A DNA stretch of 64,000 nucleotides from an uncultured delta proteobacterium (lineage in GTDB: Bacteria > Desulfobacterota > Binatia > JACPRU01), in the NCBI GenBank assembly GCA_963745025.1, contig CAVUWD010000002.1, positions 96,001 through 160,000 of the forward strand, written 5' to 3'. The notes beneath the pieces are model-generated. The model did no database searches and had not been told where the DNA came from. It saw nothing but the letters and a program-made list of their open reading frames with translations. Made by a program: the position numbers and the translations under genes. This document shows positions 61,124 through 64,000 of the stretch, piece after piece (within the stretch, counting starts at the first letter, position 1; the number at the start of each line of letters is the position of its first letter).

Positions 61124-61640
61124 ATGAACGGTCCGATCGCAGGCAAGGTCGTCGTCATCACGGGAGCGAGCAGCGGAATCGGCGAGACGACCGCGAAGCA
61201 TCTGGCGGCGTCCGGGGCGCTGGTCTCCCTCGGAGCGCGCCGCAAGCATCGGCTCGACGCGTTGGTCGATCGACATCAACGTCAAGGGCGTCCTCTACGG
61301 AATCGCTGCCGTGCTGCCGATCATGAGAGAACAAGAGAGCGGTCACATCATCAACGTCTCTTCCGTCGCGGGCCACACGGTGAGACCCGGAAACGCCGTC
61401 TACGCGGCGACAAAGCATGCGGTTCGTGTGATCTCCGAGGGTCTCCGGATGGAAGTCAAGCCGTACGGAATCCGGACCACGATCATCTCCCCGGGTGCCG
61501 TCGCGACGGAGCTCGCCGACAGCGTGACCGAGCCCGACCTCCAGGAGCGGACGCGCGCTTTCTATGCGCTGGCGGTCCCAGCGGACGTGATCGCCCGCGC
61601 GATCGCCTACGCGATTTCCGAGCCACCCGATTCTCGAACC
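61124..61640 (+). pseudogene. SDR oxidoreductase with internal deletion
   Basis: TGASSGIG...RLDALV jumps with a frameshift to DINVKG...SSVAG...YAATK; the NNAG region is missing. Confidence 0.85.
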
Positions 61641-61714
61641 AGACCTGCCCAGAGAAGCAGGAAGGTAAGCGATCGGCACCGAGGATCCAGTCGGTGCAGG
61701 GAGGGACGACTGGG

Positions 61715-62590
61715 GTGACGCAAAGACCGACGCGACTCGACGCGATCGTTCAGGCGGAGCGGCGCTTCGTGTGGCTGGACTGCATGGCCTACGCGCGACG
61801 GCTGTTCGCTCCGAGCGAAGACGTCTGGGGAGAGGTGAGTCGGTTCATCGACGTCGTCCGGCAAGCGCAGCGGCTGGTGGCATCCGAAGTGATCGAGATC
61901 AGTTTGGACGCATTTCATCGGGCTGCGCTCAAGCCGACGTCTGGAGCCGATTCCCGTACCGATCCTCGCGCGGTGTCGTCCCTTCGCCGGCTGCTGCGAG
62001 ACGGAGCGCCCACGAAGCGAGCCTCGGAGAGCATTCGCGGGTTGCACGCGCTCTACCCCGACGTTCCCATCGTCCTCGTGCTGAAGGGCGGTGCCCGCTG
62101 GCTTTCGCTGGCTTCCAACGACCTCGGGTTCGAGAAGTCGTGGGATCGTGAGGACGTGGACGCCAGCAGCGTGTACTTGGCGGATCTCGTGCGATCGTTC
62201 TCGAACGTCGGGGTGGCAGGCATCGTCGTCGACGTGCGAGGCCAAGACGCGGCCTCGGCGCCGGAGCAGGTCGAGCTGCATCGCCCACTGTTCAACGTCG
62301 CGCAGCATTACCAGTGGGTCAAGGGCGTGATGACCGATCCGCCGGCGCTGTTCGATGGATCCGCGCTCGCCGGCCTCGTCGATCTCGTCCTGTGCCCCGA
62401 AATCGATCTTGCCGCGGTCGCCCGACCGGTCGACGGCGTTCCTGTCGGCGGTGGTCTGAATGAGCGGTTCTGGCTGGCAGAAGAGTGTCCCGAGCTACCA
62501 GAGCGGGGCCTATGCTACGGCGAGATCCCCGAGCATGCCGAGCCGGAACAAGTGCTCTCCAGACTGGCCCGACTGCGCGCTCGCGTCTGA
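61715..62590 (+). CDS. Hypothetical protein (about 291 aa)
   Basis: GTG after GGAGGG and a natural-looking sequence; no motif recognised. Confidence 0.65.
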
Positions 62591-62678
62591 CGCCACCGAA
62601 GCACGTTAGCTCGGCACCATCGCTTCCTGGGGCCTGTCGGGTAGGGACCGGTGCCTGACAGGGCTTGCTCGCTGTACC

Positions 62679-63458
62679 TCAAGCTTTCCGCGCGAGGACG
62701 TTTACTCCATGGACGCCGAACTTCCGTGCGACATTCTCCTTTGAGGTCCCACAGAAGCAATCAAACCGGTCGGTAATCTTCGCCTCCGAAAACCCGACCG
62801 CAGTAAGTAGCGAGAGGAGCTCTGCCTCCGGCAGAGCACCGGCAATTCACGCGGTCCACAAGTCGATGTCGCGGCGCGCCTCATCTGAAACCGCGCTCTC
62901 AAGCGCAATGTCCGCCAGGAACAGCTGCCCTGCGGGCTTGAGCACACGATACATCTCGCGCGCTGCGGTTTCCTTCTCTGGGACCAGGTTGAGGACGCCG
63001 TTCGAGATCACCACGTCAACACTCTCGCTCTCGATGGGTAGCGCAACGGCATCGCCACTCCGCACCTCAACGTTATCGAGACCGGCCGCGCAGGCCCCGC
63101 TGCGCGCTTGGGCGGCCATCGCCTCGGTCATCTCGATCCCAATGGCCCGCCCGCTCGGACCGATGGCGCGGGCCGCAAGCAGCAAGTCCAGGCCGGCACC
63201 ACACCCGACATCAACGACCGTCATCCCGGTCTGCAGCGGCGCGACACGAAGCGGATTGCCGATGCCACTAAACGGGGCGGTCACCTCTGCAGGGAGCGTC
63301 GCGAGCGCCGCGGCGCTGTAGCCCAGTACGGCGACGGCGTACTCCGGGCCGCGGTGAAAATGGAACGTTCCCTGAGGTTCCGTCACCACGCGCGTGTACA
63401 TGGTGTGGATCGCCTCCCGCAGGCGTTGCCTATCCACATCACACGGTAGCGCGATCAT
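62679..63458 (-). CDS. ArsM-like SAM methyltransferase, probable selenoprotein (UGA at 62847-62849 read as Sec204; 259 aa)
   Basis: GNP, VDVGCGAG.D, ISNGVLNL, VLKP.G. After LWTA-TGA the frame continues IAGAL...GF for 55 codons to TGA 62679-62681. Confidence 0.85.
62819..62837 (-). promoter_or_regulatory. Candidate bacterial SECIS hairpin
   Basis: GCUCUGCC-GGA-GGCAGAGC, a perfect 8-bp stem with a G-containing loop, starting 9 nt after the in-frame UGA. Confidence 0.75.
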
Positions 63459-63591: not shown

Positions 63592-64000
63592 ATGAAGTCC
63601 ATTACGGATGTCGGCCTGCAAGACGTTACCGCCGTCTACAGTGGAGCAGAAGGAGACCTGTGGGAACTCCTGATGGGTCACCAGATTCACATCGGTGGCT
63701 TCAAGTCTTCGATGGACCTGGCGGAGCGAGCCGGTATTGGCGCAGGGCTCCGCGGCGTCGACCTCTGCTGCTGCAATGGTGCCGGCATGCGATTTCTCGT
63801 GCGCTTCCGTGAGGTCGCCGGCATGACTGGTGTTGACGCGACCGAAACCGTGGTGAACCGCGGGCGTCAACGCTGTCAGGAGGAAGGCCTCGCCGACCGG
63901 ATTCGTTTCGTCCTTGGAGACGTCTGCAACAGCGGGCTGCCGGCGGGCAGCGCCGATTTCGTCTGGGGCGAGGATGCCTGGTGCTATGTGACCGACAAGC
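63592..64000 (+). CDS. Class I SAM methyltransferase, 3'-partial (not in the ORF track)
   Basis: SD AAGGAGG; MKSITDVG...HIGG...VDLCCCNGAG...GVDAT...GD...DFVWGEDAWCYV, open to the window end. Confidence 0.85.
   Translation, partial: MKSITDVGLQDVTAVYSGAEGDLWELLMGHQIHIGGFKSSMDLAERAGIGAGLRGVDLCCCNGAGMRFLVRFREVAGMTGVDATETVVNRGRQRCQEEGLADRIRFVLGDVCNSGLPAGSADFVWGEDAWCYVTDK

What the first reader, a model, noticed from the sequence alone, without database searches (positions are those of the whole stretch)
62679..63458. Hidden selenoprotein: ArsM-like methyltransferase with in-frame UGA and SECIS-like hairpin
Seen: the 203-aa ORF stops at DIDLWTA-TGA, but the same frame continues IAGALPEAELLSLLTAVGFSEAKITDRFDCFCGTSKENVARKFGVHGVNVLARKA. 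A perfect hairpin GCUCUGCC-GGA-GGCAGAGC begins 9 nt after the UGA, with its G-containing loop about 17 nt away. Known: arsenite methyltransferases carry W..CIAGAL here with an As-binding Cys, and bacterial Sec insertion uses a stem-loop directly 3' of the UGA. Seen: the other ArsM cysteines are gone (GCGNP is GIGNP, SNCVINL is SNGVLNL), and a CFC motif appears only in the read-through tail. Inference: a Sec-dependent methyltransferase whose chemistry differs from canonical ArsM, for example single-selenol methyl relay or metalloid/thiol methylation. Standard gene callers would truncate it. I cannot tell from here whether this subfamily is already catalogued.
Basis: partly seen in the sequence, partly recalled or inferred. 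Interest (0 to 1): 0.88.

Follow-up and report, generated by a model that had tools for sequence, protein, structure and literature searches.

The report
Selenocysteine ArsM-like methyltransferase gene
This is a real but truncated-by-annotation gene for a methyltransferase that carries selenocysteine at its active site; it belongs to a selenoprotein family known since 2007, in a branch that has lost the other arsenic-binding cysteines.

Summary
The minus-strand ORF 63458..62847 stops at a TGA (62849-62847). The same frame runs on for 55 codons to a second TGA (62681-62679). A perfect 8-bp hairpin with a GGA loop starts 9 nt after the first TGA.

The TGA is almost certainly a selenocysteine (Sec) codon:
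- All 84 orthologous loci examined carry TGA at this site, followed by a conserved tail.
- The hairpin is kept through compensatory changes: 96.9% of cells paired, 4 of 8 pairs covary, 0 of 500 shuffles reach this.
- The Cys-encoding sister clade (76 loci, TGC/TGT) lacks the hairpin.
- The genome has selD-selB-selA and tRNA-Sec.
- The tail folds as an integral part of an ArsM-like structure (pLDDT 94.6).

Sec204 aligns with CmArsM Cys224. The Cys72 and Cys174 equivalents are Ile66 and Gly154.

The kind is not new. "Arsenite methyltransferase, UxxG" is a catalogued selenoprotein family (Fomenko 2007; later reviews), and NCBIfam holds three ArsM-type selenoprotein models. This gene scores below all their cut-offs. 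It sits in a distinct "FHFHRG" clade that is probably not a true arsenite methyltransferase: the same genome has a canonical Cys ArsM beside ACR3. Its substrate is unknown.

The parts
62679..63458 (-). Whole selenoprotein gene: 259 codons (Met1 to Ala259, with Sec204) plus the terminal TGA stop
   Evidence: Orthologs align over residues 1-259. The AF2 model of the 259 aa has pLDDT 94.6.
62847..62849 (-). In-frame UGA, read as Sec204; equivalent to CmArsM Cys224 / human AS3MT Cys206
   Evidence: TGA in 84 of 84 orthologous loci. TGC or TGT in 76 of 76 sister-clade loci that matched the motif. Alignment to PDB ArsM chains. No other letters listed at these three positions in the 4 runs laid.
62819..62837 (-). 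SECIS-type hairpin: 8-bp stem, GGA loop, 9-nt spacer after the UGA
   Evidence: -13.4 kcal/mol. On 81 sequences, 96.9% of cells are paired, 4 of 8 pairs show compensatory change in 34 cells, and 0 of 500 shuffles reach this. It meets the four bSECIS constraints quoted in PMC13188914.
62682..62846 (-). Read-through tail, residues 205-259 (IAGALPEAEL...FDCF...VNVLARKA)
   Evidence: Conserved in orthologs. Third codon positions vary most: entropy 1.69 against 1.12 and 1.02 bits. It forms helix 211-221 and strands 223-232 and 250-258 of the model.
62679..62681 (-). Second TGA: the true stop codon
   Evidence: Sequence after it is not conserved. None of the 47 orthologs (of 84) that also end in TGA has a UxPK-stop or any other shared extension. 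Close orthologs end within a few residues.

Best explanation
The gene encodes a 259-residue SAM-dependent methyltransferase of the ArsM/AS3MT superfamily in which codon 204 (UGA) is decoded as selenocysteine.

How decoding most likely works: an 8-bp hairpin with a GGA loop, 9 nt downstream and inside the coding sequence for GALPEAEL, recruits SelB carrying Sec-tRNA(Sec). Translation then continues for 55 more codons, which build a helix and two strands that complete the fold.

Sec204 occupies the position of the arsenic-binding Cys224 of CmArsM, next to the SAM site. The other two As(III) ligands are absent (Ile66 and Gly154). The enzyme therefore offers one selenolate, possibly helped by the invariant F-H-F-H-R-G motif and a conserved N-terminal Cys, to hold a soft substrate for methyl transfer.

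Shown here: the conserved UGA, the conserved tail, the covarying hairpin, the Sec machinery, the fold and the residue equivalences.
Inferred: actual Sec insertion, SelB binding, and everything about the substrate.

My odds for the substrate:
- about 0.35 a chalcogen species (sulfane sulfur or selenium, H2S/H2Se, or a methanethiol-type thiol)
- about 0.3 an already methylated or organic trivalent arsenical that needs fewer ligands
- about 0.1 inorganic As(III)
- the rest something else

The confidence given below is for the selenoprotein claim, not for the substrate.
For: UGA and tail:
- The UGA and an open downstream frame are present.
- 80 of the 80 best genome-contig loci (of 388 relatives found) have TGA at this codon followed by a conserved tail. 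78 were found by regular expression; L062 and L071 were read. A wider expression gave 84 of 84 when G000, G016 (two copies) and G017 were added.
- These loci come from records titled Binatia, Acidobacteriota, Myxococcota, Gemmatimonadota, Dormiibacterota, Chthonomonadales and Proteobacteria.
- Full-length homologs have Cys at this column. In the sister clade, 76 of 80 metagenome loci matched the motif: 66 TGC, 10 TGT, 0 TGA.

Hairpin:
- 96.9% of cells are paired and 4 of 8 pairs have changes on both sides, in 34 cells. Some of these changes alter the protein (PEAEL to PEGEL together with CUG to CUC). 0 of 500 shuffles reach this, and slid controls pair in only 30-53% of cells.
- In-register pairing is 7.75 of 8 in 83 distinct TGA forms against 4.15 of 8 in 67 distinct Cys forms. 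The 19-nt segment folds at -12.0 against -2.8 kcal/mol.
- The hairpin meets the published bSECIS constraints: loop 3-9 nt, stem 4-16 bp, G within the first two loop positions, spacing 16-37 nt, MFE at most -7.5 kcal/mol (passage read; values).

Sec machinery:
- selD (itself with one TGA), selB and selA lie together on contig C20.
- tRNA-Sec with anticodon tca.
- selA is found in 35 of 41 related genomes, including all 7 of the same family.

Fold and expression:
- AF2 gives pLDDT 94.6 and pTM 0.92, with the tail as ordered helix and strands.
- The best Foldseek matches are ArsM/AS3MT structures, TM 0.66-0.77 normalised to the query.
- A 151-nt contig from a metatranscriptome library (2 mismatches) spans 62749-62899, across the UGA.
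Against: - There is no direct evidence of selenium in the protein.
- Rfam has no matching family (0 hits).
- The genome is a metagenome bin with 7.6% contamination. The sel genes and tRNA-Sec lie on contigs (C20, C15) other than the window's (C2). This is mitigated by selA being present in all 7 same-family genomes.
- Two database homologs have Trp (P0039) or Arg (P0051) at the site, so the residue is not indispensable for an open frame everywhere.
- The RNA-library contig could derive from DNA carried over into the library.
- On the substrate, context is heterogeneous and weak. The window's own neighbours are unrelated: rhamnose synthesis, radical SAM, dehydrogenases.
Confidence: 0.93

Rival explanations
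1. It is an ordinary arsenite methyltransferase (ArsM) that happens to use Sec at the Cys224 position. It methylates inorganic As(III) as part of arsenic detoxification.
For: - The best structural and sequence matches are ArsM/AS3MT.
- The best NCBIfam hits are ArsM-type models.
- The literature lists 'arsenite methyltransferase, UxxG' as a selenoprotein family.
- JGI names many homologs arsenite methyltransferase.
Against: - It scores 207.6 bits against the NF008823 cut-off of 263.
- The Cys72 and Cys174 equivalents are Ile and Gly; position 154 is Gly in at least 90% and positions 65-69 hold G-x-x-N-P without Cys in the 68 sequences of A3.
- Passages read in PMC4211708 name three Cys as the As(III) binding sites.
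- The same genome has a canonical Cys ArsM (CC, GCGNP, SNCVINL, WSGCIAGAL) next to an ACR3-like transporter on C18.
- Canonical Sec-ArsMs that keep all the other Cys exist in the same phylum (8 loci). They fall on the other side of a branch with 99% support.
- No ars genes lie near it in the window.
Confidence: 0.1
2. The TGA is a nonsense mutation or sequencing error, so the gene is a pseudogene, or the 203-aa product is the real protein.
For: - Gene callers stop there.
- Many database entries are 203 aa.
Against: - TGA is at the same codon in 84 of 84 orthologs from several phyla.
- The downstream frame is conserved with a coding-type substitution pattern.
- The hairpin covaries.
- The tail supplies two strands and a helix of the fold.
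- No variant letters are listed at the codon in the 4 runs laid.
Confidence: 0.01
3. The UGA is read through by something other than the Sec pathway, such as near-cognate Trp or Cys insertion or a reassigned code.
For: - Homologs with Trp or Arg at the site exist.
- No direct Se evidence exists.
Against: - The gene itself ends at a TGA with no conservation beyond it, so TGA is a stop in this organism.
- Homologs have Cys, the usual Sec counterpart.
- A hairpin that fits the bSECIS model is specific to the TGA forms.
- The full Sec machinery is present.
Confidence: 0.03

Closest known systems
Arsenite methyltransferase selenoprotein family (PRK11873/NF008823, Sec motif UxxG). Listed as experimentally verified, citing Fomenko et al. 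2007 Science, in Table 1 of PMC13188914 and PMC9312934. Counted in PMC2398784 (8 Sec sequences in GOS) and PMC5029168 (39 organisms, 41 genes).
   Same: - Same superfamily and fold.
- Sec at the same position (the Cys224 / AS3MT Cys206 equivalent) with the same motif: U-I-A-G here.
- Bacterial SECIS directly after the UGA.
   Different: - This protein is below the NF008823 cut-off (207.6 against 263 bits).
- It lacks the N-terminal CC, the GCGNP and the SNCV cysteines, which canonical Sec-ArsMs of the same phylum keep.
- It falls in a separate, well-supported clade.
- I could not see the sequence of the listed representative (WP_011987699.1), nor the Fomenko paper, so I cannot say which clade it belongs to.
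CmArsM / CrArsM / human AS3MT (solved structures 4fr0, 4fs8, 6cx6, 5evj, 8xt7)
   Same: - N-terminal, SAM-binding and substrate-binding domains superpose (TMq 0.66-0.77).
- 26-31% identity.
- Sec204 aligns with Cys224.
   Different: - The solved enzymes are about 60-120 residues longer, with an extra C-terminal domain.
- Their Cys72 and Cys174 are Ile66 and Gly154 here.
- An invariant FHFHRG motif sits roughly where, by offset of the alignment, the Cys44 region of CmArsM lies. This placement is an inference; that region was not aligned.
NCBIfam multi-Sec ArsM-type models: NF041537 (ArsM/AhpD), NF041536 (ArsM/DUF2284), NF047649 (methyltransferase/UXPK-star), from Haft & Tolstoy 2025 as cited in PMC13188914
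   Same: The methyltransferase part aligns over about 220-240 residues at 199-215 bits, with the same UxxG Sec site.
   Different: - All three cut-offs (510, 575, 460) are missed.
- The protein has no AhpD or DUF2284 domain; it is only 259 aa.
- There is no second Sec and no UxPK-stop end (0 of 84).
Thiol/sulfide S-methyltransferases MddA and MddH (PMC11445057)
   Same: - They may work alike: SAM-dependent methylation of a small soft nucleophile.
- mddA homologs lie beside members of this clade in 8 of 80 Cys-form and 4 of 83 Sec-form loci. One scores 340.5 bits against the NF045656 cut-off of 270.
   Different: - It is not a member of either family. MddA is a membrane protein. MddH is described as a UbiE-family protein (passages read).
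- No activity data exist for this clade.

Membership tests
Bacterial selenoprotein (SelB/SECIS-dependent UGA decoding) | In-frame UGA at a position where homologs have Cys | tested here: met
   Cys in full-length homologs. 76 of 76 motif-matching sister-clade loci have TGC or TGT.
Bacterial selenoprotein (SelB/SECIS-dependent UGA decoding) | UGA and the downstream reading frame are conserved among orthologs | tested here: met
   84 of 84 loci have TGA. Tail conserved. Third codon positions most variable.
Bacterial selenoprotein (SelB/SECIS-dependent UGA decoding) | bSECIS model: loop 3-9 nt with G in its first two positions, stem 4-16 bp, 16-37 nt from UGA to loop, MFE at most -7.5 kcal/mol (PMC13188914, Fig. 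2 legend) | tested here: met
   Loop GGA, 8-bp stem, 17 nt spacing, -13.4 kcal/mol. Covariation shown. The hairpin is absent from Cys forms.
Bacterial selenoprotein (SelB/SECIS-dependent UGA decoding) | Genome encodes selA, selB, selD and tRNA-Sec | tested here: met
   All lie on contigs other than the window's, in a bin with 7.6% contamination. selA is present in 35 of 41 relatives.
Bacterial selenoprotein (SelB/SECIS-dependent UGA decoding) | Selenium shown in the protein (75Se labelling or mass spectrometry) | not testable with these tools
   Needs a bench experiment.
Arsenite methyltransferase ArsM (NCBIfam NF008823 / PRK11873) | Score at or above the curated cut-off (263 bits) | tested here: not met
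   207.6 bits. Cys-form relatives P0078, P0060, P0028 and P0088 score 200.7-213.
Arsenite methyltransferase ArsM (NCBIfam NF008823 / PRK11873) | Three As(III)-binding cysteines equivalent to CmArsM Cys72, Cys174 and Cys224 (passages read in PMC4211708) | tested here: not met
   Ile66, Gly154 and Sec204. The whole clade lacks the first two.
Arsenite methyltransferase ArsM (NCBIfam NF008823 / PRK11873) | ArsM-type fold | tested here: met
   Top 13 Foldseek matches are ArsM/AS3MT entries.
Arsenite methyltransferase ArsM (NCBIfam NF008823 / PRK11873) | As(III) methylation activity | not testable with these tools
   Needs an enzyme assay.
[quoted passage not shown] | Score at or above 460 bits, and a second Sec in a C-terminal U-x-P-K-stop | tested here: not met
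   204.1 bits. No UxPK end in 0 of 84 orthologs, and the sequence after the terminal TGA is unconserved.
ArsM/AhpD (NF041537) and ArsM/DUF2284 (NF041536) selenoproteins | Score at or above 510 / 575 bits, and a fused second domain with further Sec | tested here: not met
   215.3 and 199.4 bits. Matches cover only the methyltransferase part (profile positions 7-228 of 345 and 8-229 of 459). The protein is 259 aa.

The most novel reading that the evidence does not exclude
The 'FHFHRG' clade is not an arsenite methyltransferase. It is a separate, ancestrally Sec-dependent enzyme family, widespread in soil and sediment bacteria, especially Acidobacteriota. It uses a single selenolate (with His33, His35 and an N-terminal Cys) to capture a substrate that needs only one soft ligand. 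That substrate would be sulfane sulfur or selenium bound as a Se-S or Se-Se adduct, or dimethylarsenite. The enzyme would methylate it and feed volatile products to partners such as MddA. That would make it an unrecognised selenium-dependent step in S, Se or As volatilisation.
Probability: 0.3. Interest if true: 0.6.

Novelty: new member of a known kind. Interest (0 to 1): 0.3.

Why it matters
- Annotation. Public records truncate this gene at the UGA. One example is P0053, 203 aa, named 'methyltransferase domain-containing protein' by NCBI. Proteome and metabolic inferences for many soil and sediment genomes therefore miss a full-length selenoenzyme.
- Arsenic surveys. Automatic 'arsenite methyltransferase' labels on this clade are probably wrong, because two of the three arsenic ligands are missing. 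This matters for surveys that count arsM genes as a proxy for arsenic methylation.
- A clean example. The clade offers a neat natural case of SECIS constraint shaping protein sequence: Ala to Gly and Pro to Leu changes are paired with synonymous changes on the other arm of the hairpin.
- What it does not do. It does not open a new kind of system. Sec-containing ArsM homologs have been in the selenoprotein catalogues since 2007-2008.

Tried and rejected
- Rfam. An E-value-mode search of 62600-63000 gave 0 matches up to E = 10. No curated model covers this SECIS type, so this says nothing either way.

No earlier findings were used.

- Papers not held. Haft & Tolstoy 2025 and Fomenko 2007 are not held. 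What I say of them comes from the table and reference list of PMC13188914 and from passages of PMC4211708.

- BSepDB paper (PMC13326102): 0 occurrences of methyltransferase or arsenite in the main text.

- MddH and the two actinobacterial S-methyltransferases. MddH is described as UbiE-family. PMC12904073 has no mention of ArsM or arsenite. I reject membership and keep only the adjacency of mddA as a weak functional hint.

- Phylum-wide search with P0001. It found 2 of 401 genomes at E <= 1e-60, but only 6 candidates per genome were scored. The gene is patchy in its own phylum; this is not proof of absence.

- L118. It was flagged '1 TGA', but that TGA is merely the terminal stop. I therefore fetched 12 further loci. 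Eight have TGA at the Cys224 site (L147, L148, L150-L153, L156, L157). Two belong to the sister clade (L154, L155). Two have Cys at the site, with a TGA only at or beyond the end (L146, L149).

- Tree. The careful search did not finish, so the result is the quick IQ-TREE tree with SH-aLRT support only and a midpoint root. My group labels used the literal string FHFH. As a result, 11 metagenome rows and L076 that sit inside the FHFH clade are labelled 'canon'; this is a labelling artefact. I gave the tree every second locus of each set, 106 rows in all. The hint that Sec is ancestral and the Cys clade derived depends on the root and is tentative.

- Structure. I could not measure distances between Sec204, His33, His35, Cys6, Cys234 and the SAM site.

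- Neighbourhood. No neighbour is conserved across the clade.
  - Sec forms, of 83 loci: ArsR+rhodanese 17, MFS 17, MBL-fold 16, second methyltransferase 13, LysR 9, 1-Cys peroxiredoxin 5, globin 5.
  - Cys forms, of 80 loci: an unnamed 315-aa protein 38 and a 139-aa membrane protein 24.

- Laid reads. Parts of the gene had no cover in some runs; nothing is concluded from that. The promoter and terminator scan found nothing above the shuffles.

Full report
WHAT IS THERE

On the minus strand an ORF runs from ATG at 63458 to TGA at 62849-62847 (203 aa). Read with TGA=U, the frame stays open for 55 more codons, to a second TGA at 62681-62679. Nine nucleotides after the first TGA lies GCUCUGCC-GGA-GGCAGAGC (62837-62819).
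- Alone the hairpin folds at -13.4 kcal/mol, z = -4.14.
- In a 66-nt context, z = -2.21.

Pfam sees class-I methyltransferase domains. The best NCBIfam matches are ArsM-type models, all below their cut-offs:
- NF041537: 215.3 of 510 bits
- NF008823: 207.6 of 263 bits
- NF047649: 204.1 of 460 bits
- NF041536: 199.4 of 575 bits

IS THE UGA A SEC CODON?

Homologs. In the protein database, 56 of the 120 best clusters (63-97% identical) are 201-207 aa long, which means they were cut at this very codon. This is my count from the table. Full-length relatives at 50-60% identity cover 96-99% of the read-through protein and have Cys at column 204, followed by I[AG]GALPE...FDCF...VN.FARK.

DNA level. The 80 best loci of 388 relatives in the species-genome collection all carry TGA at the site, with a conserved tail. 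78 were found by pattern; L062 and L071 were read directly. With the copies in G000, G016 (two) and G017, a wider pattern gives 84 of 84. The record titles span Binatia, Acidobacteriota, Myxococcota, Gemmatimonadota, Dormiibacterota, Chthonomonadales and Proteobacteria.

Tail. It evolves like coding sequence. Column entropy by codon position is 1.12, 1.02 and 1.69 bits.

Hairpin conservation. On 81 distinct sequences:
- 96.9% of pair cells are standard pairs.
- 4 of 8 pairs show changes on both sides, in 34 cells.
- 0 of 500 shuffles reach the covariation score.
- Slid registers pair in only 30-53% of cells.

Several compensations cross the protein level. Leu CUG to CUC goes with Ala GCA to Gly GGA (PEAEL to PEGEL). 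Pro CCG to Leu CUG goes with Glu GAG to GAA.

Control clade. As a control I fetched the Cys-encoding sister clade from metagenomes.
- 76 of 80 loci matched the motif: 66 TGC, 10 TGT, 0 TGA.
- Only 4.15 of 8 in-register pairs form there, and the segment folds at -2.8 kcal/mol.
- The TGA forms have 7.75 of 8 pairs and fold at -12.0 kcal/mol.

The hairpin meets the four constraints of the published bacterial SECIS model (Fig. 2 legend of PMC13188914, read).

Sec machinery.
- selD (with its own TGA), selB and selA lie side by side on C20.
- tRNA-Sec (anticodon tca) is on C15.
- The bin has 7.6% contamination. However, selA is present in 35 of 41 related genomes and in all 7 of the same family, so the trait belongs to the lineage.

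Expression. A 151-nt contig of a metatranscriptome library bridges the UGA (62749-62899, 2 mismatches). None of the four runs laid shows another letter at the codon. DNA carry-over in that library cannot be excluded.

WHAT THE PROTEIN IS

With a 68-row alignment, AlphaFold2 gives pLDDT 94.6 and pTM 0.92. The tail forms helix 211-221 and strands 223-232 and 250-258, so the 203-aa product would lack part of the fold.

Foldseek's top 13 matches are ArsM/AS3MT structures (5evj, 6cx6, 4fr0, 8xt7 and others; TM 0.66-0.77).

HMMER alignments to these chains place Ile66 under CmArsM Cys72, Gly154 under Cys174 and Sec204 under Cys224. Passages of PMC4211708 give Cys224, Cys174 and Cys72 as the As(III) sites.

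The loss of two of these is a property of the whole clade, Sec and Cys forms alike. What the clade conserves instead:
- F32-H33-F34-H35-R36 is invariant (G37 in at least 90% of the rows).
- An N-terminal Cys is present in 75 of 80 Sec forms.
- Cys234 of FDCF is present in 62 of 80.

RELATION TO CANONICAL ARSM

- The same genome has a canonical 275-aa ArsM with CC, GCGNP, SNCVINL and WSGCIAGAL, next to an ACR3-type transporter on C18.
- In the phylum, NF008823 is over its cut-off in 113 of 401 genomes.
- Eight fetched loci are canonical ArsMs with TGA at the Cys224 site that keep all the other cysteines. These are what the catalogues call the arsenite methyltransferase selenoprotein.
- In a quick maximum-likelihood tree, the canonical group (22 rows, Cys and Sec) and the FHFHRG group (84 rows) are split by branches with 99% SH-aLRT support. 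Within the FHFHRG group the Cys clade is nested among Sec forms. The root is tentative, and some labels are artefacts; see Tried and rejected.
- The terminal TGA is a true stop. Nothing beyond it is conserved, and no UxPK end exists.

CONTEXT AND FUNCTION

The window's neighbours are unrelated to arsenic or selenium: rmlC/rmlD, a QueC-like protein, radical SAM, a zinc dehydrogenase and a broken SDR. A divergent methyltransferase lies upstream.

Across the loci there is no universal partner.
- Among 83 Sec-form loci: ArsR+rhodanese regulators (17), MFS transporters (17), GloB/ETHE1-like MBL hydrolases (16) and a second methyltransferase (13) recur.
- mddA (methanethiol S-methyltransferase, 340.5 bits against a cut-off of 270) lies directly upstream in 8 of 80 Cys-form loci, and within 3 kb in 4 of 83 Sec-form loci.

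This leans towards handling of reactive sulfur or selenium rather than arsenic, but it is weak.

The abstract of PMC3877260 (search listing) states that arsenite binds three cysteines, MMA two and DMA one. A one-ligand site could therefore equally suit a methylated arsenical. I cannot decide between these options.

WHAT IS KNOWN

- 'Arsenite methyltransferase' (PRK11873/NF008823, motif UxxG, one Sec) is listed among experimentally verified prokaryotic selenoproteins, citing Fomenko et al. 2007 (Table 1 passages of PMC13188914 and PMC9312934).
- It was counted in the GOS selenoproteome (8 sequences, PMC2398784) and in 39 organisms in PMC5029168.
- NCBIfam holds three fused multi-Sec relatives.
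- My searches for 'selenoprotein' with 'arsenite methyltransferase', for 'ArsM' with 'selenocysteine', and for the representative accession found no paper that discusses a cysteine-poor FHFHRG clade. This covers the held library only, without supplements and without the two key papers.

VERDICT

It is a new member of a known selenoprotein kind. There is an open and moderately interesting question about what the cysteine-poor clade methylates.

Noticed in passing
window 61124-61718 (+): A short-chain dehydrogenase is split over two frames. The N-terminal part matches profile positions 1-49 in one frame and the C-terminal part matches positions 120-192 in another (61311-61718), only about 19 nt apart. 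This suggests an internal deletion plus a frameshift: a pseudogene or an assembly error.
   Followed up: partly
window 63592-64000, continuing to L022:3214 (+): A divergently transcribed 267-aa class-I methyltransferase lies 133 bp upstream of the selenoprotein gene. Homologs lie beside the Sec gene in L037 and L038 too (3 loci in all). Its best NCBIfam match is the DVU_1556 family at 48.9 bits, well below the cut-off.
   Followed up: partly
G000:C20:20417-25012 (L001, L002, L009): selD, selB and selA lie together, and selD itself contains one in-frame TGA, so it is a second selenoprotein of this genome.
   Followed up: no
G000:C18 (L034:135-2800): An ars-type cluster in the same genome: a canonical Cys ArsM (275 aa), an ACR3-like 403-aa transporter, and a 194-aa protein upstream.
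   Followed up: partly
P0039 and P0051 (database proteins): Two full-length homologs have Trp or Arg at the Sec position. TGG and CGA are each one base away from TGA, so these may be recent losses of the Sec codon.
   Followed up: no
L154, L155 (G341:C34, G232:C7): A more distant Sec-containing sister group with FHFHTG, SNGVINL and UIAGGLPC, that is, a Cys five residues after the Sec. It also lacks the Cys72 and Cys174 equivalents.
   Followed up: partly
L158-L237, e.g. L183:522-1469 and L204:2758-3177: In the Cys-form clade, an unnamed 315-aa protein (38 of 80 loci) and a 139-aa membrane protein (24 of 80) are the commonest neighbours. Neither matches Pfam or NCBIfam.
   Followed up: partly
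L217:708-1481 and 7 other Cys-form loci; L046, L071, L074, L091: mddA (methanethiol S-methyltransferase) lies next to members of this methyltransferase clade in 12 of 163 loci.
   Followed up: partly
window 62817-62878 and 62972-63033: In sediment and wetland metagenome contigs, many short high-depth pieces from other organisms match just the UGA-plus-hairpin stretch and the SNGVLNL stretch. These are the most conserved DNA of the gene.
   Followed up: no
window 61790-62590 (+): The convergent downstream ORF (266 aa as translated) has no Pfam or NCBIfam match.
   Followed up: no
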